Shown: piece after piece, positions 28,187 to 62,613 of the stretch
Numbering within the stretch: position 1 is the stretch's first letter
Layout of the letters: every line of letters starts with the position of its first letter
Origin: a virus
Taxonomy: Duplodnaviria; Heunggongvirae; Uroviricota; Caudoviricetes
Direction: 5' to 3' (one strand)
Virus record (IMG/VR): IMGVR_UViG_3300031949_000001
Span: 219,305-283,304 of that record
DNA: 64,000 nucleotides
Position numbers and translations under genes: made by a program
Notes under the pieces: model-generated
Told to the model about the DNA's origin: nothing
Seen by the model: only the letters and a program-made list of their open reading frames with translations
Databases searched by the model: none

Positions 28187-28579
28187 TTAGACTTCTTTTA
28201 ATAACTCCCTCAATATGAGTAGCTCAGATTCTGTTATGGTGCGCTTATATTGCAGCCAGTTTGTCAACAGATGTTCAATGTTTGCAGCGCCAATTTGATT
28301 GGCTGAGTGAACCTGAAACCTGAAGTTTGGTTGTAAGAAATCACGATGTTTTTCAACAGCATCTAAATCTTTTTCGACTAACCATTTGGCGAAAGCATAG
28401 CCATCATTACCTTCTTCGTGTCCAAGGTCATGATCAAAACTAACAACGGTTGGTGCTCCCCGACCAGTAACTAATTCTTTAGCTTGAGATACTGAACGGG
28501 CGATTACCCATTTCGTGATACCTAGCGGATTTGCGGCTTCGGAAGGGGAGCGTAGATCGTCTAGAAAAAGATTCCACAT
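28187..28579 (-). CDS. hypothetical protein with CheY-like receiver-type motifs
   Basis: LFLDDLR ... VSFDHDLG ... YAFAKW resemble the DD/D/K positions of REC domains. Confidence 0.35.
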   Translation of the reverse strand: MWNLFLDDLRSPSEAANPLGITKWVIARSVSQAKELVTGRGAPTVVSFDHDLGHEEGNDGYAFAKWLVEKDLDAVEKHRDFLQPNFRFQVHSANQIGAANIEHLLTNWLQYKRTITESELLILRELLKEV

Positions 28580-30140: not shown

Positions 30141-30142
30141 GG

Positions 30143-31117
30143 TTATTCCTTAGTTTCCATTTTAATTAGTTGCTCGATGGTTAGTCCTACTTTATTCTCT
30201 CCACCGAATTTTGTTCCGAATTTTTTACTTCTAGCGTGTGTTAGATTGTATTCATAAGCATGAACAGGCAAAGGCACATACTTGACTTCTTTAACTAATT
30301 TCGGCGCGTTCTTCATGTAGTACTCTATGAATCGTTGAACTTCCGATCTTTCGAAAGACCTTGCATTAACATAGATAAAGAGAGGTCTGGATAATGGTTG
30401 ATAAGTACCGTTCATAACTGTTTCTACGGAAGGACCGACCGGCTTTGCCCCAGTCTTGGAAATGATTAGAACTGCCCTTAGTTTGTTACGATTTTCATCA
30501 AAATAAGCAAACCCAAAATATCCAAGCGAATTCACATCTTGAGAAACGCCTTGAACTAGAACATTGTCATCTTCGCTCGCAGTAAAGTCACCACGAGAAG
30601 ATTTGGTTTTTCCAACAATAGCTTCGGTAAAATAATCAAATGTTCCAGAATCAGCACCGGGACCATAAAGCTTCAATTGAGTATTTGTCCATGCTGGATT
30701 TATTTGATTCCATTTTGTAATTTTACCCTGCGCCATCGGCTCCCATATTTTCTTTAGTTCTTCGACAGTAATGCTATTAAGCCAAGTATTTTTAGAGCTA
30801 ACAACAACAGTCAGAGCATCAAACGCAACTGGTAGTTCATAATACTGAATGCCGGCTACTTTACAAGCTTCCATTTCGGATTTGAGGATAGGACGAGACG
30901 CGTTAGCAATATCAATTTCGCCTCGACAAAACTTCTTAAACCCGCCGCCTGTACCAGAAATACCAACAGTAACTTTGGTGTGTGTCGATGATTGAAAGTC
31001 TTCTGCTACTGCCTCTGATATAGGAAACACTGTGCTCGATCCGTCTAGTTTAACTAACTGAGCATGTGCGGTTACAGAACAAAACAAAAAAGTAAGGATT
31101 GTTAGAACTGTCTTCAT
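30143..31117 (-). CDS. pstS: phosphate ABC transporter substrate-binding protein
   Basis: Signal peptide plus [17 protein letters not shown] and GISGTGGG motifs; 324 aa. Confidence 0.85.
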
Positions 31118-49099: not shown

Positions 49100-49175
49100 T
49101 GGCGCGCAGTGTGGGAATCGGACCCACGACAATCGGTTTTAGAGACCGCTCCTCTGACCACTAAGGTAACTGCGC
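49100..49175 (-). tRNA. tRNA with CUA anticodon (amber suppressor; Trp-like anticodon arm)
   Basis: The minus strand reads GCGCAGT-TA-CCTT-AGTGGTCA-GAGG-A-GCGGT-CTCTAAA-ACCGA-TTGTC-GTGGG-TCCGATT-CCCAC-ACTGCGC-G-CCA. It is 76 nt with 7/7 acceptor pairs, U33, A37, anticodon positions 34-36 = CUA, and discriminator G73. The anticodon arm is nearly identical to E. coli tRNA-Trp (CCGGUCUCCAAAACCGG). Confidence 0.75.
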
Positions 49176-51600: not shown

Positions 51601-51803
51601 AAATTAACCTCGTTGGTTTATTTATGGAGTTATTTTATCCGAGCAGTAATTGTTTACCTTCGTCGGTACGTTCTAGAATTTGTGGAACTTCGTTGAGTGC
51701 GCGCGGCACCGAAAGAGAAGCACTTTCGGCAAGATTTTTACTGCCATAAGGTCCGAACATTCCTTGGGAAGTTTGGACCCAATATTTCAACATATTCATT
51801 TGA

Positions 51804-52304
51804 TCATTCAACATTTTCACCACTGATGGCTTCGATAGCATTGTTCCTAATAACATTCGTAGTTTCCTCCATGAATAATTGTATATATTGCTTTAAATTG
51901 CCTGGGATATTATTGAATTCGAGTGGTATATCGTAAGTTACGGTACGAAATCGCCGCCCCTTTACAAAAGTGTGGACATCATGACAACCCATAAAACAAA
52001 CAGTTTGATTTCGAGGAGTTCGGATAATATGAGGATTTGATTTAGAGCGTCCAAACTCAACACCAGCTTCATTGAGCATGAAGCAAAAATATTCACAGAG
52101 ACATAGAGCGTAACTATAAGAGGGAGCAACCACCAAATGAAAAGTATCAGTATCACCGACCTCTAATTCACCAATCAGCAAAACAAATTGAGCAGTTGTT
52201 TTCCCTGCTCTGCGCGGGAGATGTTCAGTTGTTTTTAATTTTTCAATAGTCGAATGAAGCCGATCAATATCGAATTGGGTATTTCCCACGGCAATAGATT
52301 TCAT
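51804..52304 (-). CDS. hypothetical protein
   Basis: 166-aa ORF containing PRRAGKTT (not a canonical Walker A). Confidence 0.4.
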   Translation of the reverse strand: MKSIAVGNTQFDIDRLHSTIEKLKTTEHLPRRAGKTTAQFVLLIGELEVGDTDTFHLVVAPSYSYALCLCEYFCFMLNEAGVEFGRSKSNPHIIRTPRNQTVCFMGCHDVHTFVKGRRFRTVTYDIPLEFNNIPGNLKQYIQLFMEETTNVIRNNAIEAISGENVE

Positions 52305-52463: not shown

Positions 52464-52661
52464 TTAATCCCACTTCAAACCAGTCTTTGGGTTTATAGCT
52501 GTTTCCAGCTTGTAGTTTTTTTCTTCGATAACGATGTAAGGTTCATAGGTGTCTGGATCGACTTGAGTATGTCCAGCACCCATCATATTCTTGCGTATAT
52601 ATTCCTTGAGACGATCAAATTCTTCTTTAGTTTTGATTTCTTCGTAAACAATATAACTCAT
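52464..52661 (-). CDS. small protein, paralogue A
   Basis: 65 aa. Shares IVY.EI...EE......E........D...PY..I.EKNY with the adjacent ORF. Confidence 0.4.
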   Translation of the reverse strand: MSYIVYEEIKTKEEFDRLKEYIRKNMMGAGHTQVDPDTYEPYIVIEEKNYKLETAINPKTGLKWD

Positions 52662-52663
52662 TT

Positions 52664-52852
52664 TTAATCCTTAAGTGGTAAAAGTAAATAGTTCTTTTCG
52701 TCTATTTTTACGTAAGGTTGAAATGTATCGGGATCAATTAAAATAAATGAAGATCGTCCAAATTCATCAACGTTGGCTTTGTGTTCCTTGCACCAATCTC
52801 TAACTTTTTGCTCTTCTTCTGCTGAAGAAATCTCACTATAAACAATATTCAT
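52664..52852 (-). CDS. small protein, paralogue B
   Basis: 62 aa, tandem paralogue of 52464..52661. Confidence 0.4.
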   Translation of the reverse strand: MNIVYSEISSAEEEQKVRDWCKEHKANVDEFGRSSFILIDPDTFQPYVKIDEKNYLLLPLKD

Positions 52853-52860
52853 ATGTCACC

Positions 52861-53274
52861 TTATAATTTGCGTGTGGGCACATAGTCTGGTGGTTCGCCG
52901 TTGTTCTTGCGGCAATCCGTTAGTTCATCATTAAAGGCTGTATCCGCCTCCTCTTTTGCGTAGGTTCTCTTGAACCAATCTTGTATTTCTTCTGAACCCC
53001 AATCGTTATACCAACCTATAACCAGATTACTCGGTCCTGGCGCTAGTTCTGGTAGGCGATCTACTGTCAACCATGTGTAGAAATCGTCTTTAACTGTCTT
53101 GAGTGACATATCTGTCTTTTTCTTCTCAATCACAGTAAAAGCGATCCAGGCACGTAATTCACATTCATCTTTTGTATCAATAGGAATCCACTTTTCCGCC
53201 GCTAAGGCAGAATTTAATCCTAAAAAACATAGAACAATAAAAACAAACTTTTTCATGGTATTCTCCTTAAGCAT
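52861..53274 (-). CDS. secreted protein
   Basis: Signal peptide MKKFVFIVLCFLGLNSALA. Confidence 0.45.
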   Translation of the reverse strand: MLKENTMKKFVFIVLCFLGLNSALAAEKWIPIDTKDECELRAWIAFTVIEKKKTDMSLKTVKDDFYTWLTVDRLPELAPGPSNLVIGWYNDWGSEEIQDWFKRTYAKEEADTAFNDELTDCRKNNGEPPDYVPTRKL

Positions 53275-53647
53275 CGGATTTCATTTTAGGTTCGGTTACT
53301 TCTGGTATTGCGTTGTCTGTAATAGTACAAGCCTTAATTTCTGATTCTTGTGCTCGTTTCGGATCATCGTAGCTTCCATATGTTACGTTGAACCATGTTT
53401 CCATAGCCGTTGGACCCCAAGCTTTATACCATTCTCTCATAATGGCAAGTCTACGTCGGTTACCAACACCACGACCTTGGAGTTGAAAAACAAATCGTTC
53501 AAATTGTTGCTCAACCGGAAACATCCTTTTGGTAGTAATAATGTGTGAAGCGACAATTCCTCTGACATCACAAACAGTAACTTGTGGTTCTTCATCAGCA
53601 ATTGCTAACGTTGCAGTTAACAACAGTAAGGGGATCAGTCTTAACAT
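53267..53647 (-). CDS. secreted protein
   Basis: Signal peptide MLRLIPLLLLTATLAIA. Trp/Tyr spacing similar to the neighbouring secreted protein. Confidence 0.45.
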   Translation of the reverse strand: MLRLIPLLLLTATLAIADEEPQVTVCDVRGIVASHIITTKRMFPVEQQFERFVFQLQGRGVGNRRRLAIMREWYKAWGPTAMETWFNVTYGSYDDPKRAQESEIKACTITDNAIPEVTEPKMKSDA

Positions 53648-53649
53648 TT

Positions 53650-54141
53650 CTATCCTTTATAATCGCAAACAAAAAATTCTACATCCGGAAAATTAGCTGC
53701 GACCTTCTCAACTACCGGTTTAACTTCTTCTTCCCAATTCAATCCACCGAGATTACAACCGATCTTGGGCATGTAAATCGGAAGTTTTCGCTGTCTTGCA
53801 AAAGAGGCTACTGTTGACAACCCTTGTTCGATGGCTTCTGGATTAGCGTATTTAGCACCGTCTCGACCGTAGTATAATTGAGTGAAAATGTTGGCGACGA
53901 AGAGTTCCAAACCGATGGCTTTAACGCCTTCTTGTGTGTCTACATAGAGGACAAACCCAAGCAAACCTGCTTTGTTTTTTTGGTTTTTCTCCCAATATGA
54001 ACGATATGCCTTGTAGACAATTGGGAATCTTTGACGTAGCGCAAATGCAACACCAGATCCCATTTTCCCTTGACAATTACATCCATGAGCGATGATTCCC
54101 ATCTTAATGGTGGTGAGGTCTAATGTTTCATAATGTATCAT
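53650..54141 (-). CDS. macro domain protein (ADP-ribose binding/hydrolysing)
   Basis: GIIAHGCNCQGKMGSGVAFAL and PKIGCNLGGL align with macro-domain motifs (compare Af1521 AIVNAANKRLEHGGGVAYAI ... SAGIYG). Confidence 0.7.
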   Translation of the reverse strand: MIHYETLDLTTIKMGIIAHGCNCQGKMGSGVAFALRQRFPIVYKAYRSYWEKNQKNKAGLLGFVLYVDTQEGVKAIGLELFVANIFTQLYYGRDGAKYANPEAIEQGLSTVASFARQRKLPIYMPKIGCNLGGLNWEEEVKPVVEKVAANFPDVEFFVCDYKG

Positions 54142-54178
54142 ATATGTTATTAAAATGGTCTTAAATGTAATTTATATG

Positions 54179-55066
54179 TTACATTACGAGGATACCTTTA
54201 CTTGCCTCGCTCATGAGTTGGTCGAAATAATAATTCATAGTATTTGCGAAAGTTTCTACAGAATCCGCATAGTCTTCACGAGTATCAGCATCCGAATACA
54301 ATGGATACTTACCCCAACCTGTTCCACCAATAGTCTTTGGTAACTTGTTAAATCTTACCTTACCTTCAATGACATACTGCGCGAATAGTTCATTGTAAAT
54401 TTCGAAATAATCTCGAATATTCTTTTCTCTAGCTGATTTAAAGGTACACAATTCCTGGAACAGATGAATCATCCTTAATTGGCTGTTTCGAATCTGTGCC
54501 CTTCTTTGTTCATCATACGCTGACGCAGAAGACTGAACACTTGTATATCCTCTCATATTATAGACGTTCTGAAGGATATCTTCAAGAAAATGGTTAGTTT
54601 CCTTCACTAATTCAGCATAAAATCGAAATTGCCGTGTACTCCTTCCACCATTAAAATCAAATCTAGCCAGTGCGTGAGCCATTCTATGCGCCATGATCCA
54701 AGGCGTCATTGGCACCTTTTGAGCAGCAGCATTTCCAACATAAATGATATTGACGTTTTCCTCTTGCCCAACATAAGGCTCTACCGCCTTAGCAACATCA
54801 GCACCTAAATTCTTCTCAACCCAAGGCAAATCAACCTTTCCTTTTTCCGTAAACTGACGAGCACCCGGCTTATTATCAAAGAACATATTGATAATGTATG
54901 GCGTCTTGCCGAACTTCTTCCTGACGTTCTCAATAGCCTTTGGGCTTGAAACTAGAGCGGGATCTGTTTTGCCTTGGAAAGAATGGGGCTTGCTAAAATC
55001 GCCGATAGTTTGATAGGCGCCGAGGGGTACTTCCGCCAGAAATGTCTTGAAAGTTGTTTTTTCCAT
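54179..55066 (-). CDS. hypothetical protein
   Basis: 295-aa ORF between macro-domain and NDT-like genes; no motif recognised. Confidence 0.45.
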   Translation of the reverse strand: MEKTTFKTFLAEVPLGAYQTIGDFSKPHSFQGKTDPALVSSPKAIENVRKKFGKTPYIINMFFDNKPGARQFTEKGKVDLPWVEKNLGADVAKAVEPYVGQEENVNIIYVGNAAAQKVPMTPWIMAHRMAHALARFDFNGGRSTRQFRFYAELVKETNHFLEDILQNVYNMRGYTSVQSSASAYDEQRRAQIRNSQLRMIHLFQELCTFKSAREKNIRDYFEIYNELFAQYVIEGKVRFNKLPKTIGGTGWGKYPLYSDADTREDYADSVETFANTMNYYFDQLMSEASKGILVM

Positions 55067-55107
55067 AATAAATCCTTGAGTTCACTATGGAATATTTATT
55101 TCAAACT

Positions 55108-55452
55108 TTACTGAACATCACCATTTTCCATTTTTTTCTGATCTTCATAAGGAGCTACTACCTTCCGTTCGAATTCGGTCTTTGCACATTCTAATACTCC
55201 AACTGCTCGATTTACTCTGTAATAATTGGTAATTGGTATACCACCAGCATCAACTCCATCTGTATAAAATCCTTTCATCAATCTGGTTATGACATAATTC
55301 ATCACACCATCCAATTTTGATTGATCAAGTTCTAAATTTTCAGTGGCAAGTGTATGATACCCATCCAACAATATAGCATCACAAATAGATGCCATTAATT
55401 GACTGATTTCTGGATCGATTTCATCTCTAAGTATTTGTTTAATATAAGGCAT
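55108..55452 (-). CDS. hypothetical protein
   Basis: 114-aa ORF. Confidence 0.4.
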   Translation of the reverse strand: MPYIKQILRDEIDPEISQLMASICDAILLDGYHTLATENLELDQSKLDGVMNYVITRLMKGFYTDGVDAGGIPITNYYRVNRAVGVLECAKTEFERKVVAPYEDQKKMENGDVQ

Positions 55453-55461
55453 TCTTTTCTC

Positions 55462-55959
55462 CTAAGGTAGTAATACAATTCTTGCTATGTCCATACCCTC
55501 TTCAAGTGTTTCCACAATGTAAGGGGTAGATGCGTTAATCATCGGATGGTCATGCAAATTGCCTGACTTTTCTCTGACTATAATGATAGGTTTTCTTTGT
55601 TGCCAAACCCAGGCAATTTCCATGACAGTACCAATGGTAACACGAGTCGCACCGAGTAAATTAACAAACGTGCCATCACGATTGAAACAATCAAAAGCAT
55701 CTCTGAATAGAATTCCTTGTTCAGAAGACAAAACGGAAGACAGTCCACCAAGACCTAATTGTCCCGGAGCCCCATCAATAACTTTCAGTTTCTTCAGGTA
55801 AGACTTGCCGCGCAAAGGCGACCAGCATTCAAATTCTGTTAGTGTATTGGCGACATAAAAGCGCCAATCCGTACTTTGTTCGTAATTTAGACCACCAATT
55901 GGTCCCGAGAGGTATAGGCTAGGTTTTTTCATTATTATTCTGTATCTTCCATTAACCAT
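55462..55959 (-). CDS. nucleoside 2-deoxyribosyltransferase-like protein
   Basis: SLYLSGPIGG and ...RVTIGTVMEIAWVWQQRKPIII (GTxxE.G/A..K.P) match NDT/Rcl-fold motifs. Confidence 0.55.
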   Translation of the reverse strand: MVNGRYRIIMKKPSLYLSGPIGGLNYEQSTDWRFYVANTLTEFECWSPLRGKSYLKKLKVIDGAPGQLGLGGLSSVLSSEQGILFRDAFDCFNRDGTFVNLLGATRVTIGTVMEIAWVWQQRKPIIIVREKSGNLHDHPMINASTPYIVETLEEGMDIARIVLLP

Positions 55960-56513
55960 TGATGAAAGTCGTATGCTCCATGAAGTGTTGTATGTGTATC
56001 TTTCGTTAATCCATGAACTAAAGCAACGCCAACTTGTTTAGCACAAATTGCTGATGGTACGTTTCCAACACCAGTTCCCAATCCCGGAATAGCGATACTT
56101 TTAAAACCGTATGTAATAACCGCTCTAACAATAGCCTTCATCGCTAGATACACGTTTACAGTATTACCAATCCTCATAGGAATTCTCATTGTTGGCGCTG
56201 CCAGGAGAGATTTGAATTGTGGATGATCTGTAAAGACTGCTACTGCTTGACCCACCAAAAGTTCACCATTGTAAGCGCTGTTGATAACCTCTTGCAACCT
56301 CTCTTGAACGTGCCAGCCAAGGTATCGGCTATAGGCTAGATCAATGCCACCGTCCATGAAACCAAAGCTGTTGGCGGGACTAACGATGGCGTCATATTCG
56401 CCCGGCAAATTGGTGAAATCACCTTGGAAAAATTTTACATCCGATGCTTTTTGAAATCGCTTTCGATAGGCATCAACCATTTCAGCGCTTCGATCAAAAA
56501 AAGTTATTATCAT
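55935..56513 (-). CDS. macro domain protein (MacroD/YmdB-like)
   Basis: GDFTNLPGEYDAIVSPANSFGFMDGGIDLAY and IAIPGLGTGVGNVP align with the MacroD1 GDIT..VDAIVNAAN..LLGGGGVD and FPCISTGIYGFP motifs. Confidence 0.7.
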   Translation of the reverse strand: MIITFFDRSAEMVDAYRKRFQKASDVKFFQGDFTNLPGEYDAIVSPANSFGFMDGGIDLAYSRYLGWHVQERLQEVINSAYNGELLVGQAVAVFTDHPQFKSLLAAPTMRIPMRIGNTVNVYLAMKAIVRAVITYGFKSIAIPGLGTGVGNVPSAICAKQVGVALVHGLTKDTHTTLHGAYDFHQWLMEDTE

Positions 56514-56779
56514 TCTCTTCCTGCTTCGTATATTGCCAATGCAGCTTCTTCAAGAGCATCGCGTATTTTCTTTAGACGTTCTGTTTCAGATTCTTTTTCG
56601 AGGACGCCCCATGACATACCTACCGGATGAGTTGGAAAACCACATTCTTGTAATTGTGTTGCGACCCATTCAGCCACTTCTTCTATAGACGCATCTTTCC
56701 ATCCGGCTTGGTGCATGTGTAAAGTAATGGCGATGGAGAAACAGATGTCAATTAATTTTTGTTCTCGGGATATATTCAT
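56510..56779 (-). CDS. hypothetical protein
   Basis: 89-aa ORF. Confidence 0.35.
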   Translation of the reverse strand: MNISREQKLIDICFSIAITLHMHQAGWKDASIEEVAEWVATQLQECGFPTHPVGMSWGVLEKESETERLKKIRDALEEAALAIYEAGRE

Positions 56780-57486
56780 TTTGCAACTTCTTTTCCTAAA
56801 TGCTCCATAAAGAACTCATACCTGTCTTTATGAACCTCGTATGTGGTAGTCACTAAATCAACGCAGGACTTGCAATACAATGGGGAAACTTTTGACACGA
56901 AATGATGCTTCGATTTCGCGAAAACATTGCCACAAAGGCTGCAAAGGTATTCTTGTTTTGAACTATGATTGCCGTAAATATCCCTCTTTAGAATTCCGTA
57001 TGGCAAATCGTTAAGATACGCAAACAGATCATCAAACTCCACAAACATCTTGGTTGTAAGGCTCTGGAGCCAGCCTGGAACCTCTTTCCACCATTCCTTG
57101 TAGTCGGAGACCAAGAATAGTGGTACACCCGCCTCATAAGCCACCTGACACTCACTGATGGTGCCAGCGCCTCGTCGGGCGCTCTCGTCGTAAAACACAA
57201 TCACAGCATCGCTATCTTGTTTCACCAGTGCGATGTCTGTCCATACGAAATGTCGTCTGAAGTTAGATTTGTACTGTAAGTGGTTACTTTTGTCAAGCAT
57301 GTTGTAAAGTTCACCATATTTCGTAGCATATGCTCTGTCCATATCGGTGATATCGATAGGGAAATAGTTCATTTTTTTCAATTTATCGGCGCAGAGTTTT
57401 CTCCAACCAGCACCTAAATCTTTTGCAAACTGCATGCCTCCCGAGAGATACACCGCTCCACGAGTTAGAGTTGGATGATTTATCAT
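56776..57486 (-). CDS. nucleoside 2-deoxyribosyltransferase-like protein with C-terminal zinc ribbon
   Basis: AVYLSGGMQF ... DAVIVFYDESARRGAGTISECQVAYEAGVPLFLV, plus CSLCG...CKSC. Confidence 0.6.
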   Translation of the reverse strand: MINHPTLTRGAVYLSGGMQFAKDLGAGWRKLCADKLKKMNYFPIDITDMDRAYATKYGELYNMLDKSNHLQYKSNFRRHFVWTDIALVKQDSDAVIVFYDESARRGAGTISECQVAYEAGVPLFLVSDYKEWWKEVPGWLQSLTTKMFVEFDDLFAYLNDLPYGILKRDIYGNHSSKQEYLCSLCGNVFAKSKHHFVSKVSPLYCKSCVDLVTTTYEVHKDRYEFFMEHLGKEVAK

Positions 57487-57561
57487 TATTTTCTCCTTCT
57501 TATTATATACTTATATCACACCAATGATAAATAGTCAATCTATTTCAGAGGCGGCATGTAA

Positions 57562-58179
57562 ATGAAAACTTGTATCAAATGTAATGAATCTAAACTATTA
57601 TCTGAATTTTATAAAAATAGTCATTGCGCGGATGGACATTTAACTATTTGTAAAGCATGTTCTAAAATCTATAAACAACAAAATCAAAAACATGCAGCAG
57701 CAGTAGAAAAACAACGACGTAGACGTTTAGGTGTAAAACAAAAACGTATTTTCTCTTCGGAAGAAGAGAGGCGGCTGGCTCATATAGAAGTCTGTAAGCG
57801 CCATCAACTTCGAAACAAAGAAAAGTACGATCAATATAGTGTTTGGTATCGCAAAACTTTTAAAAAAGAATGCAACCAAAGAGTTAAAGAATGGTCTCAG
57901 AAAAATCCTATAAAGCGCAAAACCCAATCTAAAAAACGACACGATCAAGAACGCAAAGCTGTTCCACCTTGGACTGACTTCAATAAAATATTAGACATCT
58001 ATAAACAATGTGAACAAACTACAAAAGAAAGTGGTATTCTTCACACTGTAGACCATTACTATCCTATTCTCGGAAAGACTGTCTGTGGTCTTCATGTAGC
58101 TGATAATCTCAAGATAATTACTGCGCTTGAGAATTCGAAGAAAGGGAACAAGCATCCAGAGGATTTTTATCTTCTTTGA
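57562..58179 (+). CDS. HNH endonuclease
   Basis: N-terminal Cys4 and C-terminal HTVDHYYP...N...N.KKGNK. Confidence 0.6.
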   Translation: MKTCIKCNESKLLSEFYKNSHCADGHLTICKACSKIYKQQNQKHAAAVEKQRRRRLGVKQKRIFSSEEERRLAHIEVCKRHQLRNKEKYDQYSVWYRKTFKKECNQRVKEWSQKNPIKRKTQSKKRHDQERKAVPPWTDFNKILDIYKQCEQTTKESGILHTVDHYYPILGKTVCGLHVADNLKIITALENSKKGNKHPEDFYLL

Positions 58180-58305
58180 TTATCGGTCTTTCTCTCATTG
58201 GTATCATACCACCACAATTGATCGGGTCGGAGCAATGAGACATACCGACCAATCTACAATCAGGACAATACATTCCTGACGGATTGTCACTGAATGGAAT
58301 TTCGG

Positions 58306-58836
58306 TCATTTTTCGTCCAATCCCCATACTGCTCTTATTATGTCTTCTTCTGTACAATGCGTTGGTTCAAGATGACTTGGGAAAATTATTCGCTGTCCTT
58401 TCAACTCTTTTCGTATCTTCATCAAAATTTTACCTAGCTCGTTTCGACCATTACCAGAGCCAACAGGAGATACACCCCAAAATTTGTCAGACCAACGGTT
58501 TCCTTCCTCTAAAACAGCATCACCAGTCTCTAATAGCATATGAGCAAGATCGCCATTCTGTTGGAATTTTGCGCGCACAATTTCTTCCATGAGACCAACC
58601 TTGACTGCTTCCCAATCTGGACGAACGACCATCTTACGACCAAACCGTTTTACGTCTCCGGGCTTCTCTATTGTAGAAATCTCAAGGCGTAGCTCTCGGT
58701 CGGTAGTCTTCGCGGCGACGTAGGCATTCTCACTTGCCCGCCAAAGAATATTGTCCCATACAAATCGGCATTTCCAAAAATTTGAAAGGAACCTATGCTT
58801 GCCTTGGAACTCTAGAATTTTCTTTACGGTTTCCAT
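58306..58836 (-). CDS. NADAR (YbiA-like) domain protein
   Basis: FLSNFW..., SENAYVAAK, KF.Q...L...LL.TG.A.L.E, D.FWG motifs colinear with E. coli YbiA; 176 aa. Confidence 0.75.
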   Translation of the reverse strand: METVKKILEFQGKHRFLSNFWKCRFVWDNILWRASENAYVAAKTTDRELRLEISTIEKPGDVKRFGRKMVVRPDWEAVKVGLMEEIVRAKFQQNGDLAHMLLETGDAVLEEGNRWSDKFWGVSPVGSGNGRNELGKILMKIRKELKGQRIIFPSHLEPTHCTEEDIIRAVWGLDEK

Positions 58837-58915
58837 TTCATAATCCGTTTTTGTAAGTAATTAAATCTGCGAGATATACAACGTTTAATATCCTTCAATG
58901 CTACCACATAACGAC

Positions 58916-59179
58916 TTAAGTTTCATTATTATTCTCTTCATACGGCGTTCTCGCCGTAAGTAAATATGTTTGTCCAGTTTGACGATTAACACCAAACTGT
59001 AACAAAGTTTCTAGTTTCATCGCTTGAACGAACTTTGGTATATTCTTAATACCAACTTCTCGTGCCCAATCTTCAAATGGCTGTGTAATGTGTTTATTCA
59101 CTACCGGTAGTATATCGTATGGAGCAACATATACATCTAAAATTGAAAAACCTTTTTCATATGCCTCATCTATGGTCAT
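58916..59179 (-). CDS. hypothetical protein
   Basis: 87-aa ORF. Confidence 0.35.
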   Translation of the reverse strand: MTIDEAYEKGFSILDVYVAPYDILPVVNKHITQPFEDWAREVGIKNIPKFVQAMKLETLLQFGVNRQTGQTYLLTARTPYEENNNET

Positions 59180-59864
59180 TATTATTCTCCTTGTTACTTG
59201 GTTTCCATTTCATAATCCGTTCTTTGTAGATAATTAAATCTGCGAGATATACACAACGCTTGATATCCTTCAGATCTGTTTTGGCTGGTAATTGCAATAG
59301 TGGGTATTTCTTGATTACTCCCCACGGAACAATAGCATGAACGAAACCAATATTCGATTCCCATTGATCCATGAAGACAAAAGCAACCAGATCGGTTTCT
59401 AAGCCATGTTCTAAAATTGGATCAGTTCCACCCCAACCAGTAGCATTCTTGAATTGAAATGTCCAACTTTTACCAGCATAGTGGAGCGTAACATTGTCGC
59501 ACGTTTTCACATGGACATTAGGTATACCAGGAATACTATCATACTCCTGAGGATAAGGCAAGTCGGGACGCCATCCTTTGGCTCTTCCTTCTCGTATTTC
59601 CAAGTCGATTGAAATATTAGGAAACCCGAGTTGCATCATAGCCTGTTTAGCAAAAAATTCGCCTTTTTTACCAAGAACATTATTCTCGTATGCTCGGCTT
59701 GCTCGGCGATTTGCTTCGTAGTTATCTAGCGATTGCCCTTTACCTTTTTGGCGTTCAACAAATTCTCTAATCAACTGATTGTAACCTTTGTTTTCTTCTG
59801 GTGTAAACTCAATACGAATATCTTCTACGCTACTAATGAGGTAGCCGTTTTCAAACACTTCCAT
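59166..59864 (-). CDS. hypothetical protein
   Basis: 232-aa ORF. Confidence 0.45.
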   Translation of the reverse strand: MEVFENGYLISSVEDIRIEFTPEENKGYNQLIREFVERQKGKGQSLDNYEANRRASRAYENNVLGKKGEFFAKQAMMQLGFPNISIDLEIREGRAKGWRPDLPYPQEYDSIPGIPNVHVKTCDNVTLHYAGKSWTFQFKNATGWGGTDPILEHGLETDLVAFVFMDQWESNIGFVHAIVPWGVIKKYPLLQLPAKTDLKDIKRCVYLADLIIYKERIMKWKPSNKENNNDHR

Positions 59865-59887
59865 TATAATCTCCCTTATTTTTATTT

Positions 59888-60724
59888 TTATTCGGGGCAG
59901 ATGATTAACTCCGATTTAACTCGTGCGTTTCTTATTGTATAATTGGCGTTTATTTTTTCTATCGACGCCCAACTATAAAGTTTACGAATTTCTGGACAGT
60001 CATCATAGGAGAGCACCCAATCATGTGATGACCTCTCTAGAAGGTGTGCTAGGTATTCATGCTCTTCGATGGTGAAGCTATATTGATACAACTCGCTTCC
60101 TTTGTTAAAATATGGCGGATCGAGGTATAAAATGGCTTTCCTCGTATCGTCTTGAACTAACACCGAAAAATCTAACGCTGTACAATAACCATATTGCACA
60201 TTCAAATCGGAAAACATATCACTAAACCGTCTTATTTTCTTTATCAGATAATTTGGAGACCACCTACAATCGATTTTATATTTGGACTCTTGGCTTTTAC
60301 CACCTAACGGACCACCCGCCTTGGTCCCAAGACCAGAAAAAGACAGTTGATGCACAACTAGTTTCTTAAAGCCTATGTTAACGATATCAACTGGATCAGA
60401 TGGCATCATATACAGAGCTAACAATTCTTCTTTGAATGAATAGAATTTGTCTGGATGCGGTTCAAACGTCCCAATTTCATTTATCAAGAGTTGTGGATAT
60501 GCTAGAACTGAAGACCAAAGGCATGCAATGCCCACGTCTCGGTCATTGATCCATACATCTTTAACATGTGTCCAAATTTCGAGAAACTTAAGACCAACAC
60601 CACCCCCACCGAAAAACGGTTCACGATACTGCAAACCAGTTTCCAAAGAACGAATTAAGAGCGCGTCTATAATCTTGGATTGGAATTTTGATTTCCCGCC
60701 TGGATAGCGGAAGAATGAAGACAT
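59888..60724 (-). CDS. dam: DNA N6-adenine methyltransferase (Dam/D12 class)
   Basis: N-terminal FRYPGGKSK and catalytic DPPY. Confidence 0.8.
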   Translation of the reverse strand: MSSFFRYPGGKSKFQSKIIDALLIRSLETGLQYREPFFGGGGVGLKFLEIWTHVKDVWINDRDVGIACLWSSVLAYPQLLINEIGTFEPHPDKFYSFKEELLALYMMPSDPVDIVNIGFKKLVVHQLSFSGLGTKAGGPLGGKSQESKYKIDCRWSPNYLIKKIRRFSDMFSDLNVQYGYCTALDFSVLVQDDTRKAILYLDPPYFNKGSELYQYSFTIEEHEYLAHLLERSSHDWVLSYDDCPEIRKLYSWASIEKINANYTIRNARVKSELIICPE

Positions 60725-61017
60725 TACAGAATTCCGAAAATATCTTCTTCTTTAATGAAGTAGTAATCCTGATTTTCCAGCTTGATAAGCTGAGCCGATC
60801 CAATACCGAAGATAACTTGATCACCTTCTTTAACTTCTGGTACGATACGTTCACCATCTTCTAGCACTCTACCCGGTCCTACTGCTATGACGGTTCCTAT
60901 CGTTTTCTTATCCTTATCGTCACCCTTGTCGATAATCAAAATGCCGTTCTTGGAAAATTCCTGGTCTTTCTTCTCGATGGTTACGATAACCTTATCGAAT
61001 AGTGGTCTTATTTTCAT
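60724..61017 (-). CDS. groES: co-chaperonin GroES
   Basis: MKIRPLFDKVIV...GIL.I........GTVIAVGPGR...G........GD.VIF is colinear with E. coli GroES; 97 aa. Confidence 0.8.
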   Translation of the reverse strand: MKIRPLFDKVIVTIEKKDQEFSKNGILIIDKGDDKDKKTIGTVIAVGPGRVLEDGERIVPEVKEGDQVIFGIGSAQLIKLENQDYYFIKEEDIFGIL

Positions 61018-61523
61018 TTTTGTTCTTCCTTTATTTTATTACAGGTTAATGGTAAATTTTCGATTTTGGAGCCGCCGATAGTAGTATTTGTCCAGGTATC
61101 ATCACGAAAAAGATTTCCATTCGCGTCTAGAGATAAGAACTCTGAAAGAGTCAATGCTCTAGATGGTATATCATCTGTTTGAAGGGTTTCTGGTGTTTGA
61201 TCATGATACCATTTTTGAGATTCGATCAGATGTAACTTATTGTCTTCACAAGTTAATAATAACGAATGGAATATAACACCGCCCGGAATCGCCGCGATAT
61301 AGCTTTTTTGTTCCCCATTTGCAACCCATTTTAGTTTAGGTATATCTGTTGCATTTAAAATAGACATTTCATATTCATTACCCGTAGTTTCAATACGAAG
61401 ATCAAAACTAGAAGTATTTCCAGTGTCAAGTTTTTTAACATCACAATGATAGTTACCTGTTAAAATAGGACATGAAAACGCAATCGATGGTAATAATAGA
61501 AGTAAATAAATAAGTTTTTTCAT
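61014..61523 (-). CDS. lipoprotein
   Basis: Signal peptide with lipobox IAFSC. Confidence 0.45.
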   Translation of the reverse strand: MKKLIYLLLLLPSIAFSCPILTGNYHCDVKKLDTGNTSSFDLRIETTGNEYEMSILNATDIPKLKWVANGEQKSYIAAIPGGVIFHSLLLTCEDNKLHLIESQKWYHDQTPETLQTDDIPSRALTLSEFLSLDANGNLFRDDTWTNTTIGGSKIENLPLTCNKIKEEQK

Positions 61524-62065
61524 GATAACTGTTCTCCAAAAATGGTTGAAAGATCGTACCGCATTTTTTCTAGTCTACCAGGATTTCCGAGGTTGTAAAC
61601 TGGTATTCCGTTTTCGTCTGCAATGGCAATAGCTGTTCCGGTGCCACCGGTTTTGATTGTTCTATCTTGCTTTCGTTCGCAACCGTCAAGCGTCCAACAT
61701 ACAAGCAATGTCGATGGTGTTTTTAAATCTTCACCCAACACTTGAAAGACGTTTCGAGCATGTAGATTTTTTGCCGCAGGAGATAATTTACTCCAGACGG
61801 AATGAATTCTTGACGCATAGTCTAAAGCTGGTATAGTAACTTCATACTTATCAGATGTATGATTATTAAAGCCTTTCCATGGAAGGTAAATTTCCTTTTT
61901 TCCTAATACAACATCACACCCATCCTCGAAAGCGCTATCGGCGCCGGCAGCGCCCCCACTACGTAGACACCATCCGAGAGATGCAAATGTTTCTCCCATG
62001 CCCATCATTTGAGCTATAACCAACGGTGGTGTTTGTCTACTTCCTACTCCCGAATAATATATCAT
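61520..62065 (-). CDS. SLOG-superfamily (DprA/Smf-like Rossmann) protein
   Basis: YSGVGSRQTP ... LRSGGAAGADSA matches the DprA/SLOG nucleotide-binding signature GSR...SGGA.G.D. Confidence 0.5.
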   Translation of the reverse strand: MIYYSGVGSRQTPPLVIAQMMGMGETFASLGWCLRSGGAAGADSAFEDGCDVVLGKKEIYLPWKGFNNHTSDKYEVTIPALDYASRIHSVWSKLSPAAKNLHARNVFQVLGEDLKTPSTLLVCWTLDGCERKQDRTIKTGGTGTAIAIADENGIPVYNLGNPGRLEKMRYDLSTIFGEQLS

Positions 62066-62613
62066 GTGTAATGTGCTCCTCCGATTTCCAACAATCGAAT
62101 TTCTTCAAGCATATTGTTTCTAGCAGTAGCCTCCGAAAAAGTAAATGGTTCGGTATAGAAAATTTGGTCTCTGTCTAGCATCTTGCATAAGAACTTTCTG
62201 CGTCCTTCTTTCCATTCTTCATCTGAAAATGCTGCAAATTCTTTTCGAATTAACTCAGCATTATACCAATATTTTCGAAAAATATCACAAAGACCCATCA
62301 GATCAAGATCGATAACGCGTTTAGATTCATGAACAGTAGAGATATGCTCTTTTGTATCAAGAATTATCCTCTGAACAAGATCTAATGCTATAGTCGTGGA
62401 ATGTCCATAGTGTTCAAAGAATTTACCGGAGCTTTCTAGTTCGTTAGTTTTTGAACCAGCTACATATACATAATCATGATACCAAATAGCTAAAATTTGC
62501 TCATCTGTTAATGTAGATAATTCCAAGCCAATTTTAACCATCTCAGCAGGATGTGTCAAAACATGGTACACTCGATGTGGTTCTGAATAGGCTTTAGTTA
62601 GTTTGAGAAGCAT
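62062..62613 (-). CDS. HD-domain phosphohydrolase
   Basis: H..H (YHVLTH) then HD (WYHDYVY) about 25 aa later. Its stop overlaps the start of the SLOG gene by 4 nt. Confidence 0.5.
   Translation of the reverse strand: MLLKLTKAYSEPHRVYHVLTHPAEMVKIGLELSTLTDEQILAIWYHDYVYVAGSKTNELESSGKFFEHYGHSTTIALDLVQRIILDTKEHISTVHESKRVIDLDLMGLCDIFRKYWYNAELIRKEFAAFSDEEWKEGRRKFLCKMLDRDQIFYTEPFTFSEATARNNMLEEIRLLEIGGAHYT

What the first reader, a model, noticed from the sequence alone, without database searches (positions are those of the whole stretch)
53650..62613. Island of ADP-ribose and nucleotide-signal processing genes: 2 macro, NADAR, 2 NDT-like, SLOG/DprA-like, HD
Within 9 kb on one strand lie:
- two different macro-domain proteins (53650 and 55935);
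- a NADAR/YbiA-like protein (58306), the family that reverses guanine ADP-ribosylation of DNA;
- two nucleoside 2-deoxyribosyltransferase-fold proteins (55462, and 56776 with a zinc ribbon);
- an SLOG/DprA-like Rossmann protein (61520) whose gene overlaps an HD phosphohydrolase gene (62062);
- several unknowns, including a 295-aa ORF with no recognisable motif.

Dam methylase, GroES and an HNH endonuclease are interspersed.

In host genomes these families are mostly the reversal or antitoxin components of ADP-ribosylating toxin systems, or effectors in nucleotide-signalling defence systems. A phage carrying all three erasers (macro, macro, NADAR) plus NDT/SLOG/HD enzymes is consistent with a multi-layer anti-defence cassette. 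Its targets could be DNA- or protein-ADP-ribosylating defence systems, or NAD-derived immune signals. I do not recognise this combination as a described system.
Basis: partly seen in the sequence, partly recalled or inferred. Interest (0 to 1): 0.8.

Follow-up and report, generated by a model that had tools for sequence, protein, structure and literature searches.

The report
Phage NAD/ADP-ribose gene cluster, partly conserved
A large phage carries a real cluster of genes for handling NAD and ADP-ribose, a known kind of phage counter-defence region, but only about half of the 9 kb is conserved, and its most constant part is an uncharacterised two-gene pair.

Summary
All seven family calls sit at the stated coordinates:
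- two different macro domains;
- a YbiA-type NADAR;
- two NDT-fold proteins, one with a CxxC…CxxC zinc ribbon;
- a SLOG/DprA-like protein overlapping a putative HD phosphohydrolase by 4 nt (HD rests on a PHROG match only).

Comparison with about 70 non-redundant related loci shows a conserved core: HD, SLOG, NADAR, NDT-zinc-ribbon (g07), DUF6899 and macroA. A Nampt-type NAMPT lies just beyond the window end, and relatives often add an NAD kinase.

Not part of that core:
- macroB, the second NDT and the 295-aa ORF occur only in one or two close relatives;
- Dam, the HNH gene and several small ORFs were not found near g07 elsewhere;
- the 295-aa ORF occurs in 62 other phage loci with none of the NAD genes nearby.

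The combination is not undescribed. Iyer et al. 2022 reported Macro+NADAR+SLOG neighbourhoods and NadV in large phages. Phage NADAR (AdfN), macro (AdfM, Adpp) and Nampt (NARP2) counter-defence roles are now experimental.

The new element is the g07–DUF6899 pair: adjacent in 47 of 59 loci, uncharacterised, and found in only one cultured phage (Ralstonia RsoM2USA). Function is inferred only.

The parts
62062..62613 (-). g16, putative HD-type phosphohydrolase (183 aa). Occasional member of the conserved core.
   Evidence: phrog_19425 1.7e-26. No Pfam or PDB hit. Homologues at 38% identity lie next to NADAR/NADK in L079 and L092. Present in 4 of 24 g07 loci with at least 5 kb on both sides.
61520..62065 (-). 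g15, SLOG/DprA-like Rossmann protein (181 aa); overlaps g16 by 4 nt. Core member.
   Evidence: phrog_768 1.1e-54. Weak DprA matches in Pfam (0.022) and PDB (0.17). Motifs GxGSR, LRSGxAxGxD and GGT are invariant. Present in 12 of 24 g07 loci against 0 of 62 control loci.
61014..61523 (-). g14, 169-aa ORF with an N-terminal signal or lipoprotein-like sequence. Lineage-specific, not core.
   Evidence: No family hit. Not found within 5 kb of g07 in the 24 fully flanked loci.
60724..61017 (-). g13, GroES co-chaperonin. Lineage-specific (also in L113 and L114).
   Evidence: Cpn10 5.9e-23.
59888..60724 (-). g12, Dam-type N6-adenine DNA methyltransferase. Insertion, not core.
   Evidence: PF02086 2.1e-20. 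Absent from all other g07 loci, including the closest relative L113.
59166..59864 (-). g11, 232-aa unknown; seen only in the closest relative (L113).
   Evidence: No family hit.
58916..59179 (-). g10, 87-aa unknown.
   Evidence: No family hit.
58306..58836 (-). g09, NADAR of the YbiA subfamily (176 aa). Core member.
   Evidence: PF08719 3.9e-26; TIGR02464 78.6 bits (cut-off 73.7); 2b3w 3e-18; 8bau 1e-5. Present in 10 of 24 g07 loci against 0 of 62 controls.
57562..58179 (+). g08, HNH/endonuclease VII-type gene on the opposite strand; probably a mobile insertion between NADAR and g07.
   Evidence: phrog_26577 1.7e-21, phrog_1035 1.9e-17. Absent at this position in all relatives.
56776..57486 (-). 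g07, nucleoside 2-deoxyribosyltransferase-fold domain fused to a C-terminal CxxC…CxxC zinc ribbon (236 aa). Anchor of the conserved core; uncharacterised family.
56510..56779 (-). g06, 89-aa unknown, inserted between g07 and DUF6899.
   Evidence: No family hit. Absent in relatives.
55935..56513 (-). g05, macroB, a macro domain whose closest solved relatives are TTHA0132, PARP9/14 macros and O-acetyl-ADP-ribose deacetylases (192 aa). Accessory (also in L114).
   Evidence: PF01661 3.1e-13; phrog_2613 5e-52; 2dx6 7e-7. Present in 1 of 24 g07 loci.
55462..55959 (-). g04, NDT165, nucleoside 2-deoxyribosyltransferase family (probably 156 aa from 55932). Accessory (L113, L161).
   Evidence: Homologues carry PF05014/PF15891. 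Weak reciprocal HMM hits with g07, 0.004 and 0.028. Other NDT-like genes occupy similar positions in L065 and L100.
55108..55452 (-). g03, DUF6899 (114 aa). Near-obligate downstream partner of g07; three-helix bundle with an invariant N-terminal MPYI.
54179..55066 (-). g02, 295-aa protein of a widespread phage family with an invariant MTPWIMAHRxGHA motif. Not part of the NAD module.
   Evidence: 62 IMG/VR loci with none of the other island genes. Weak zincin-like alignment, E 0.35. Near g07 only in L113.
53650..54141 (-). g01, macroA, macro domain of the ALC1/TARG1/DarG/Poa1p class (163 aa). Core member.
   Evidence: PDB 2fg1 6e-12, SCO6735 1e-10, DarG 2e-7, Poa1p 7e-7. PADLOC DarG 2.8e-17. 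Aligns with PhiKZ AdfM, E 2e-5. Present in 8 of 24 g07 loci against 0 of 62 controls.

Best explanation
The window comes from a large, uncultured, jumbo-type phage. It encodes ribonucleotide reductase, NAD-dependent DNA ligase, DnaB, primase, RNA ligases and Acb1.

The 9-kb stretch is an accessory-gene block, and a conserved NAD+/ADP-ribose neighbourhood is embedded in it. In transcription order the neighbourhood reads:
- Nampt-type NAMPT, about 3.5 kb beyond the window end;
- HD, then SLOG;
- NADAR;
- the NDT-fold/zinc-ribbon protein g07;
- DUF6899;
- a DarG/Poa1p-class macro domain (macroA).

Lineage-specific genes have been inserted between these: radical SAM, g14, GroES, Dam, g11, g10, HNH, g06, macroB, NDT165 and g02.

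**Most likely role.** The block keeps the infected cell's NAD+ pool and the phage DNA usable when host defences consume NAD+ or ADP-ribosylate DNA.
- NAMPT re-uses nicotinamide.
- NADAR and the macro domains remove ADP-ribose from guanine or thymine, or dephosphorylate or deacylate free ADP-ribose derivatives.
- SLOG, HD and the NDT-fold enzymes cut N-glycosidic or phosphoester bonds in NAD-derived or nucleotide molecules.

**Shown here:** the folds and families, the gene order, and the co-conservation.

**Inferred:** every enzymatic substrate and any anti-defence phenotype. It is probably a set of adjacent, individually acting genes rather than one multi-protein system. The exception is g07 and DUF6899, which behave as a coupled pair.
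For: - **Family assignments:**
- **NAMPT next to the block in the same phage:** PF18127+PF04095 on the same strand (L075). Its motif GMGGALLQQVNRD is Nampt-type, not Namat-type.
- **Co-conservation:** the closest relative found, L113 (80% g07 identity), carries NAMPT-HD-SLOG-GroES-g11-NADAR-g07-NDT165-DUF6899-g02-macroA in about 10 kb. More distant phages keep subsets:
  - L079, 343 kb: NAMPT, SLOG, NAD kinase, HD, NADAR, g07, DUF6899, macroA;
  - L065: NAMPT, an NDT-like gene, SLOG, g07, DUF6899, macroA;
  - L100, g07 only 39% identical: NAMPT, an NDT-like gene (PF15891), SLOG, NADAR, g07, DUF6899, all contiguous.
- **Counts:** in 24 non-redundant g07 loci with at least 5 kb on both sides, SLOG is in 12, NADAR 10, macroA 8, NADK 7, NAMPT 5 and HD 4. 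The same HMMs find 0 of 62 in 983 kb of control phage loci; Fisher p runs from 2e-8 to 5e-3.
- **Distribution on the tree:** loci with the NAD context are scattered over the g07 tree, including its deepest branch.
- **Cultured phages:** Rhizobium phage RHph_I1_18 has NMNAT/Nudix-NAMPT-macro in a row.
- **Literature:** Iyer et al. 2022 describe and interpret such neighbourhoods. AdfN, AdfM, Adpp, NARP1-3 and RyDEP show NAD-centred counter-defence experimentally.
- **Other counter-defence in the window:** an Acb1 anti-CBASS gene.
Against: - No activity or phenotype was tested.
- No NMN adenylyltransferase, Nudix, Adps or ADP-ribosyltransferase was found in the sequence available, so no complete known NAD reconstitution pathway is present.
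- macroA lacks an obvious equivalent of the DarG/TARG1 catalytic lysine in the pairwise alignment. Its closest solved relatives are uncharacterised or protein-directed macro domains.
- The NADAR is YbiA-type, a subfamily that also includes a riboflavin-intermediate N-glycosidase.
- The related loci are phylogenetically linked, so the Fisher tests overstate independence.
- The HMMs were built from g07-linked members and may under-detect divergent homologues in the controls.
- DUF6899 also occurs without g07, next to ThyX, MazG or CCA-adding enzyme genes. In RsoM2USA the pair is followed by an RNA ligase and thymidylate synthase. Other themes are therefore possible.
Confidence: 0.6

Rival explanations
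1. RNA-repair by-product processing. The macro, NADAR and related enzymes clear ADP-ribose 1''-2'' cyclic phosphate or ADPR-1''-phosphate made when NAD+ is used to remove 2'-phosphates during tRNA repair after host anticodon-nuclease attack.
For: - macroA matches Poa1p (ADPR-1''-P phosphatase, 6lfu 7e-7) and phrog_335 'phosphatase'.
- The window encodes a cREC cyclic-phosphate-processing domain (28187-28579) and RNA ligases.
- In RsoM2USA an Rnl1-type RNA ligase directly follows DUF6899.
- In L065, L100 and L109 a CCA-adding-enzyme-like ORF lies within a few kb of DUF6899; only the L109 one has a Pfam match.
- Iyer et al. note that such genes sit with RNA-repair genes in early regions.
Against: - No Tpt1/KptA 2'-phosphotransferase or Pnkp was seen in the window or in related loci.
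- In the window the RNA ligases and cREC lie 10-45 kb from the island.
- The most frequent partners of g07 are NAMPT, NAD kinase, SLOG and NADAR, which fit NAD economy better than RNA repair.
Confidence: 0.15
2. Nucleotide-pool or nucleobase metabolism. The NDT-fold enzymes, the SLOG (LOG-like phosphoribohydrolase) and HD (nucleotidase) salvage or exchange bases and supply ribose-5-phosphate or modified nucleotides for phage DNA synthesis. The macro and NADAR genes are merely neighbours.
For: - DUF6899 lies beside ThyX, MazG, an IMPDH/GMP-reductase-like gene or thymidylate synthase in other phages.
- Dam and a radical SAM gene lie in or next to the block.
- The window is rich in nucleotide-metabolism genes: RNR, ThyX, DHFR, MazG.
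Against: - It does not explain the repeated linkage to NAMPT, NAD kinase, NADAR and macro.
- Iyer et al. place most viral SLOGs in the YpsA-like, NAD-related clade rather than the LOG clade. The clade of g15 was not resolved here.
Confidence: 0.15
3. No functional unit. The block is an accessory-gene region of a jumbo-phage lineage, and the apparent conservation is inherited synteny among related phages.
For: - All related loci come from phages that share g07, so they may form one broad lineage.
- About half of the genes in the 9 kb are lineage-specific.
- 11 of the 24 fully flanked g07 loci carry none of the six tracked NAD-related families nearby.
- The g15-type SLOG occurs alone in 9 other phage loci.
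Against: - The NAD-related families are the most persistent neighbours, while other flanking genes turn over.
- Order and intervening genes differ between loci, yet the members stay within a few kb.
- The association is present at 39% g07 identity (L100).
- Different, non-orthologous NDT-like genes recur at similar positions.
- Independent surveys found Macro/NADAR/SLOG co-occurrence across unrelated viruses.
Confidence: 0.1

Closest known systems
Phage Macro-NADAR-SLOG(-Nudix) neighbourhoods and NadV salvage genes described by Iyer, Burroughs, Anantharaman and Aravind 2022 (PMC9503650)
   Same: - The same domain families co-occur and neighbour each other in large phages.
- They are standalone proteins in early or accessory regions.
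- The proposed role is the same: division of labour against NAD+-derived signals or toxins, plus NAD+ salvage.
   Different: - That survey reports DrHyd/NDT-fold domains as under-represented in viruses, present only as ADP-ribosyl-cyclase-like versions.
- Here an NDT-fold/zinc-ribbon protein with DUF6899 is the most constant element, and further NDT-like genes recur.
- Neither Nudix nor DUF4326 was seen here.
AdfN, phage NADAR that reverses DarT1 guanine ADP-ribosylation (PMC11825919; Schuller et al. 2023, PMC11543638)
   Same: Orphan single-domain NADAR in a lytic phage; the NADAR fold and active-site region are conserved.
   Different: - g09 is YbiA-subfamily (TIGR02464; Glu at the position that is His in T4-like AdfN and Asp in DarG1).
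- Activity on ADPr-guanine is untested.
- YbiA itself is a riboflavin-intermediate N-glycosidase.
AdfM (PhiKZ gp104, DarG2-like macro) and Adpp (Poa1p-like macro ADPR-1''-P phosphatase in NARP1-AP operons)
   Same: - macroA is a roughly 160-aa standalone macro domain of the same ALC1/TARG1/DarG/Poa1p class.
- It aligns end to end with AdfM, including the N of the N-x-x-G-x-M-G-x-G motif.
- It sits in an NAD-salvage neighbourhood, as Adpp does.
   Different: - Only 21% identity to AdfM, with no clear catalytic-lysine equivalent.
- It lies next to Nampt-type rather than Adps/Namat genes.
- Its closest solved relatives are BT1257 and SCO6735.
NARP2 (Nampt + Nmnat) phage NAD+ reconstitution pathway; KVP40 NadV/NatV
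   Same: A Nampt-type NAMPT with the GGALLQ..NRD motif, encoded by a large phage beside ADPr-processing genes.
   Different: - No NMN adenylyltransferase/Nudix partner in the available sequence.
- Relatives instead carry NAD kinase and an AAA_28 kinase-like gene.
Nucleoside 2-deoxyribosyltransferase / DNPH1 / MilB family (DrHyd superfamily)
   Same: g07 and NDT165 share the fold and the GxGTxxE catalytic-Glu motif.
   Different: g07 has a C-terminal zinc ribbon, matches no Pfam model, and is coupled to DUF6899. Its substrate is unknown.

Membership tests
Macro domain (PF01661) | Significant match to the macro-domain profile over the whole domain | tested here: met
   macroA 26.1 bits (cut-off 22); macroB 50.1 bits. 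PDB macro-domain hits.
DarG/AdfM-type DNA ADP-ribosyl glycohydrolase | Macro domain of the ALC1/TARG1/DarG class | tested here: met
   macroA: NCBIfam DarG 2.8e-15, PADLOC DarG 2.8e-17, DarG structures 5m3i 2e-7 and 5m31 9e-6.
DarG/AdfM-type DNA ADP-ribosyl glycohydrolase | Catalytic lysine (TARG1 K84 / DarG K80; residue identities recalled from my own knowledge) and the substrate-binding Asn mutated in AdfM (N23) | tested here: inconclusive
   The Asn is conserved (N22). The region aligned to AdfM 'FPTKDN' reads 'LYYGRDG' or 'IFTQ', so there is no clear Lys (pairwise alignment only).
DarG/AdfM-type DNA ADP-ribosyl glycohydrolase | Removal of ADP-ribose from thymidine in ssDNA; rescue from DarT2 | not testable with these tools
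   Needs biochemistry or genetics.
Adpp / Poa1p ADPR-1''-phosphate phosphatase | Sequence relation to Poa1p | tested here: met
   6lfu/6lfq 7e-7 to 2e-6, but over residues 16-88 only; phrog_335 'phosphatase' 5e-38.
Adpp / Poa1p ADPR-1''-phosphate phosphatase | Placement inside a NARP1 (Adps-Namat) operon | tested here: not met
   No Adps was found. The NAMPT lacks the Namat GS[FY]x[FY]x[FY]xTRD signature and reads GMGGALLQQVNRD.
NADAR (PF08719), YbiA subfamily | Profile match, plus the conserved Glu that defines the YbiA subfamily (Asp in BC4488/DarG1, His in T4-like phage NADARs) | tested here: met
   PF08719 92.7 bits; TIGR02464 78.6 bits (cut-off 73.7). In the alignment to YbiA 2b3w, 'LEEGN' lies opposite 'LVEHT'.
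AdfN (anti-DarT1 NADAR) | Hydrolysis of ADPr-guanine; rescue from DarT1 | not testable with these tools
   Plausible, because YbiA-subfamily NADARs from Phytophthora and others are active.
Nucleoside 2-deoxyribosyltransferase fold (PF05014/PF15891; DrHyd) | Rossmannoid NDT fold with a catalytic Glu in a GxGTxxE-type motif | tested here: met
SLOG / DprA-like Rossmann superfamily | Profile match and glycine-rich loops (GxGSR; SGxAxGxD; GGT) | tested here: met
   phrog_768 1.1e-54. Motifs are invariant in 16 sequences. Four DprA structures are hit weakly at the same motif, E 0.17. The clade (YpsA-like or LOG-like) was not resolved.
HD phosphohydrolase superfamily | Match to an HD profile and the H…HD…D metal-binding motif | tested here: inconclusive
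   Only phrog_19425 'phosphohydrolase' 1.7e-26. No Pfam, NCBIfam or PDB hit. H…HD is visible (YHVLTH…WYHDYVY).
NARP2 (Nampt + Nmnat) | Both the Nampt and Nmnat genes present | tested here: not met
   Nampt is present just outside the window. No Nmnat/Nudix was found in the window or in L075. The rest of the genome was not available.
Phage Macro-NADAR-SLOG neighbourhood (Iyer et al. 2022) | Standalone Macro, NADAR and SLOG genes in one conserved neighbourhood of a large phage | tested here: met
   description.

The most novel reading that the evidence does not exclude
The NDT-fold/zinc-ribbon protein g07 and its small partner DUF6899 (three helices, invariant N-terminal Met-Pro-Tyr-Ile) form a previously undescribed two-protein enzyme of phage NAD+/ADP-ribose counter-defence.

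One example of what it could do: an N-glycosidase or base-exchange activity on ADP-ribose-derived immune signals or adducts, such as cADPR isomers, His-ADPR or ADPr-nucleobases. With nicotinamide as acceptor, that would destroy the signal and regenerate NAD+ or NMN, a further route beside NARP1-3 and RyDEP.

The evidence does not exclude this. The catalytic Glu is invariant. The pair is nearly always adjacent. Its commonest neighbours are NAMPT, NAD kinase, SLOG, NADAR and a Poa1p/DarG-class macro domain.
Probability: 0.2. Interest if true: 0.8.

Novelty: new variant of a known kind. Interest (0 to 1): 0.5.

Why it matters
NAD+ is now a recognised battleground between bacteria and phages. Host systems include TIR, SIR2, SEFIR and RES NADases and DarT ADP-ribosylation. 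Phage answers include NARP1-3, AdfN, AdfM, Adpp and RyDEP.

This locus adds a well-delimited, widely conserved neighbourhood in huge uncultured phages. Its core pair, g07-DUF6899, has no assigned function, and g07 matches no Pfam model. The pair is found in only one cultured phage, Ralstonia phage RsoM2USA (genes 482 and 481), which gives a concrete system for experiments.

It also shows that NDT-fold proteins belong to viral NAD/ADPr neighbourhoods, which the main survey had considered rare. If the pair has no NAD-related activity, the locus is simply another example of an already described class.

Tried and rejected
- **DNA similarity to GenBank phages:** megablast and blastn found nothing. 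The phage has no sequenced close relative.
- **g02 as a guide to the island:** 62 homologous loci contained none of the other island genes, so g02 is unrelated to the module. Its profile gave only a weak zincin-like hit.
- **Small ORF upstream of distant DUF6899 genes as a homologue of the g07 zinc ribbon:** not supported.
- **g07-DUF6899 fusion proteins:** none among 120 homologues.
- **SLOG and HD against PDB by sequence:** nothing significant.
- **NAMPT as Namat (NARP1):** rejected on the motif and the absence of Adps.
- **Pfam scan of nine ORFs at 43-49 kb to locate Acb1 and cREC:** empty. They were then located at 17.2 kb and 28.2 kb.
- **Promoter and terminator scan:** only weak consensus matches. 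Candidates lie upstream of HD (62660-62614) and of g07 (57530-57502). No convincing terminators.
- **Stop-codon recoding linked to the amber-suppressor tRNA:** TAG ends 13 of 107 ORFs and coding density is 93%, so there is no sign of recoding here.
- **Cellular homologues of g07:** only zinc-ribbon-less NDT domains in Ignavibacteria/Bacteroidota, in a housekeeping-looking context without DUF6899. These were uninformative.

Full report
**What is in the sequence**

Between 53650 and 62613 there are 15 minus-strand ORFs and one plus-strand ORF. The window as a whole is 93% coding, about 40% G+C and mostly minus-strand.

The window encodes ribonucleotide reductase, an NAD-dependent DNA ligase, DnaB, primase and an Rnl1-like RNA ligase. 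It also encodes ThyX, DHFR, PhoH, MazG, PstS, a phosphate porin, Acb1 and a cREC domain. It therefore comes from a large lytic phage.

No GenBank phage shows DNA similarity to the island. Nearly identical short contigs occur in several metagenomes.

**Checking the family calls**

- **macroA (53650-54141).** It passes the Pfam Macro cut-off. It belongs to the ALC1/TARG1/DarG/Poa1p class:
  - NCBIfam DarG 2.8e-15 and PADLOC DarG 2.8e-17;
  - PDB BT1257 6e-12, SCO6735 1e-10, DarG 2e-7 and Poa1p 7e-7;
  - phrog_335 'phosphatase' 5e-38.

  It aligns end to end with PhiKZ AdfM, the experimentally shown anti-DarT2 macro domain (E 2e-5, 21% identity). The Asn mutated in that study is kept. There is no obvious equivalent of the DarG/TARG1 catalytic lysine.
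- **macroB (55935-56513).** This is a different macro domain. Pfam gives 3e-13, and the best PDB matches are TTHA0132, PARP9/14 macros and O-acetyl-ADP-ribose deacetylases.
- **NADAR (58306-58836).** It is YbiA-subfamily: TIGR02464 above cut-off, YbiA 2b3w 3e-18, DarT-associated NADAR 8bau 1e-5. It has Glu at the subfamily-defining position.
- **NDT165 (55462-55959).** It has only marginal direct Pfam hits. Its homologues at 40-50% identity carry PF05014/PF15891. Gene calls on near-identical contigs start at M10, so the gene probably does not overlap macroB.
- **g07 (56776-57486).** It has no Pfam hit, yet 520 highly conserved homologues at mostly 55-70% identity.
  - The GAGTxSE motif with invariant E112 corresponds to the NDT catalytic glutamate.
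  - C182, C185, C205 and C208 form the zinc ribbon.
- **g15 (61520-62065).** It matches phrog_768 'DprA-like' at 1e-54 and has invariant glycine-rich motifs. It shows only weak DprA similarity in Pfam and PDB.
- **g16 (62062-62613).** It rests on phrog_19425 'phosphohydrolase' (1.7e-26) and an H…HD motif. This is the weakest call.
- **Dam, GroES and the HNH-type endonuclease** are as stated.

HMMs of all these families find no further copy in the window.

**What lies just outside**

A contig of the same phage that extends past the window end (L075) shows more genes on the same strand upstream of HD. These are a radical SAM protein, two small ORFs and a 478-aa NAMPT with PF18127+PF04095.

The NAMPT motif GMGGALLQQVNRD is the Nampt type. 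It is not the aromatic Namat signature GS[FY]x[FY]x[FY]xTRD defined for NARP1.

No NMN adenylyltransferase, Nudix, Prs-like, NAD kinase or Tpt1 gene was found in the sequence available.

**Is the block conserved?**

I anchored searches on two genes.

*The 295-aa ORF g02.* It has 62 homologous loci in IMG/VR. None carries any other island gene within 10 kb, by tblastn or by family HMMs. g02 is therefore a passenger. Its family has an invariant MTPWIMAHRxGHA motif that aligns weakly with a zincin HExxH site in which Glu is replaced by Arg.

*The NDT-zinc-ribbon gene g07.* It gave 103 loci from IMG/VR, metagenomes, one GTDB MAG contig and one cultured phage. These collapse to 70 groups at 90% g07 identity.

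- DUF6899 (g03 in the window) lies at most 600 bp downstream of g07 in 47 of 59 loci with enough flank, and within 2 kb in 52 of 59. In the window, three genes (g06, macroB, NDT165) have been inserted between the two.
- In the 24 non-redundant loci with at least 5 kb on both sides, the following fall within 5 kb of g07: SLOG in 12, NADAR in 10, macroA in 8, NAD kinase in 7, NAMPT in 5 and HD in 4.
- The same HMMs find none of these in 983 kb of g02-anchored control loci. Fisher p runs from 2e-8 to 5e-3, not corrected for relatedness.
- Dam, HNH, g06, g10 and g14 are never found near g07 elsewhere.
- macroB, NDT165, g02, g11 and GroES appear in the closest relatives L113 and L114. An NDT165-family gene also appears in L161.

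Representative architectures:

| Locus | Gene order |
|---|---|
| L113 (80% g07 identity) | NAMPT-HD-SLOG-GroES-g11-NADAR-g07-NDT165-DUF6899-g02-macroA |
| L079 (343-kb phage) | AAA_28, NAMPT, SLOG, NADK, HD, NADAR, g07, DUF6899, macroA |
| L065 | NAMPT, NDT-like, M16, SLOG, g07, DUF6899, macroA |
| L100 (39% g07 identity) | NAMPT, NDT-like (PF15891), SLOG, NADAR, g07, DUF6899, all contiguous |

On a neighbour-joining tree of g07, loci with and without the NAD context are interleaved, and the deepest branch has the context. Other flanking genes turn over much faster. In another set of loci a Metallophos phosphoesterase sits directly upstream of g07, where HD sits in others.

**The g07-DUF6899 pair**

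DUF6899 is a roughly 90-aa protein. P2, Y3 and I4 are invariant and M1 and K5 nearly so, giving an N-terminal MPYIK. It ends in a conserved acidic and basic motif, LECAKxExYRRxxAPYEDxKxxxNGDV.

The AlphaFold2 model is a three-helix bundle (pLDDT 88) with no informative structural or sequence neighbour. No paper in the searched library mentions it.

DUF6899 is broader than g07. Distant members lie without g07 beside ThyX, MazG, DnaJ or CCA-adding enzyme genes.

Full-length g07 (NDT plus zinc ribbon) is a small family: 28 clusters at or below 1e-30 among 1.84 billion representatives. The bare NDT domain has several hundred relatives. These include zinc-ribbon-less copies in Ignavibacteria, in a housekeeping-like context.

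Among 50,697 GenBank phage records only Ralstonia phage RsoM2USA carries the pair. Its genes 482 and 481 are both annotated 'hypothetical', and are followed by an Rnl1 RNA ligase, thymidylate synthase and a macro domain.

**Comparison with what is known**

- Iyer et al. 2022 surveyed 21,191 viral proteomes.
  - They report that Macro, NADAR, SLOG and Nudix co-occur more than expected in DNA viruses.
  - They report conserved neighbourhoods that combine SLOG with Macro and NADAR.
  - They find NadV in 33% of jumbo phages.
  - They suggest that these enzymes divide the labour of degrading NAD+-derived signals or toxins.
  - They also state that DrHyd (NDT-fold) domains are under-represented in viruses.
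- Phage NADARs (AdfN) remove DarT1 ADP-ribose from guanine.
- The PhiKZ macro domain AdfM removes DarT2 ADP-ribose from thymidine.
- Poa1p-like macro domains (Adpp) in NARP1 operons dephosphorylate ADPR-1''-P made by aRES.
- NARP1, NARP2 and NARP3 rebuild NAD+.
- RyDEP cleaves cADPR signals.
- macroA-type macro domains occur in 2,301 GenBank phage records and NADARs in 483. Rhizobium phage RHph_I1_18 has NMNAT/Nudix-NAMPT-macro in a row.

The island is therefore a member of a described class. The statement that the combination is undescribed is not correct.

**Most likely mechanism, and what is inferred**

*Shown:* the folds and families, conserved catalytic motifs in g07 and NADAR, the gene order, and co-conservation of a core of seven genes including NAMPT.

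*Inferred:*
- NAMPT recycles nicotinamide released by NADase defences.
- NADAR and macroA reverse DNA ADP-ribosylation or process free ADPR derivatives.
- macroB deacylates or de-ADP-ribosylates other substrates.
- SLOG, HD and the NDT-fold proteins cleave N-glycosidic or phosphoester bonds of NAD-derived or other nucleotides.

The alternatives are processing of RNA-repair by-products, ordinary nucleotide or base metabolism, and mere synteny. Each has some contextual support and none is excluded. I put about 0.6 on the NAD/ADPr counter-defence and salvage reading.

**Verdict**

The locus is a new variant of a known kind of phage region.

The part worth following is the uncharacterised g07-DUF6899 pair. 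It is the most constant element of these neighbourhoods and can be tested experimentally in RsoM2USA or by heterologous expression.

Noticed in passing
window 17235-17756 (-): Anti-CBASS nuclease Acb1 homologue (PF23474, E 5.5e-38), showing that the phage carries at least one recognised counter-defence gene about 36 kb from the island.
   Followed up: partly
window 28187-28579 (-): cREC_REC cyclic-phosphate-processing receiver domain (PF20274, E 6.3e-22), a family that Iyer et al. link to processing of ADPr>P and to RNA repair.
   Followed up: partly
window 49100-49175 (-) and 26780-27151 (-): ARAGORN calls a tRNA with a CTA anticodon (amber suppressor, labelled tRNA-Pyl). One window ORF matches the RF-1/GGQ domain (PF00472 1e-13), probably 26780-27151 by its GGQ motif. 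TAG still ends 13 of 107 ORFs and coding density is normal, so there is no sign of recoding in this window.
   Followed up: partly
window 54179-55066 (-); L001-L062: The 295-aa ORF belongs to a widespread large-phage family with an invariant MTPWIMAHRxGHA motif plus E222, E226 and Q230. It resembles a zincin HExxH site with Arg in place of Glu (E 0.35 to fragilysin). Recurrent neighbours include a 244-aa unknown in 27 of 62 loci and ORFs that look like Dps, IF-1 and Fe/Mn superoxide dismutase (identified by eye from their sequences, not by a family search). Function unknown.
   Followed up: partly
window 28668-31117 (-): A phosphate-selective porin O/P (PF07396) and a PstS-like phosphate-binding protein (PBP_like_2) were detected in the window. 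By sequence they are probably the adjacent ORFs 28668-30140 and 30143-31117. These are auxiliary phosphate-uptake genes and point to a Gram-negative host.
   Followed up: no
window 52464-52852 (-) and 52861-53647 (-): Two pairs of tandem paralogues lie immediately downstream of the island: two 62-65-aa proteins that hit each other in profile searches, and two 126-137-aa proteins with signal peptides and a shared W(Y)xxWG…WF…TY motif.
   Followed up: no
window 51635-51856 (-); L065 12166-12357; L100 9085-9270: A conserved 60-70-aa protein ending in …(K/Q)(E/Q)LLLG recurs 1-2.5 kb downstream of g07-DUF6899 in 9 of 21 related loci, and is present in the window. Function unknown.
   Followed up: no
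window 57562-58179 (+): The HNH/endonuclease VII-like gene is the only opposite-strand gene in the island and is absent at this position in all relatives. This fits a homing-endonuclease insertion between NADAR and g07.
   Followed up: partly
window 59166-60724 (-): The Dam methyltransferase is immediately followed by the unknown 232-aa g11. In the closest relative L113, g11 is present without Dam, so the two do not form a fixed pair. Whether g11 is a nuclease was not resolved.
   Followed up: partly
L082-L084, L095, L098 (about 0.9 kb upstream of g07): In a subset of related phages a calcineurin-like Metallophos phosphoesterase sits directly upstream of g07, where HD or NADAR sit in others. 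This hints that a phosphoesterase step accompanies g07-DUF6899.
   Followed up: partly
L101-L106 (Ignavibacteria/Bacteroidota MAG contigs): Zinc-ribbon-less homologues of the g07 NDT domain (165-171 aa) lie in a conserved chromosomal context without DUF6899. By eye, the neighbouring ORFs look like glycolate-oxidase-like, HD-domain, YgfZ-like and LOG-family genes; no family search was run on them.
   Followed up: no
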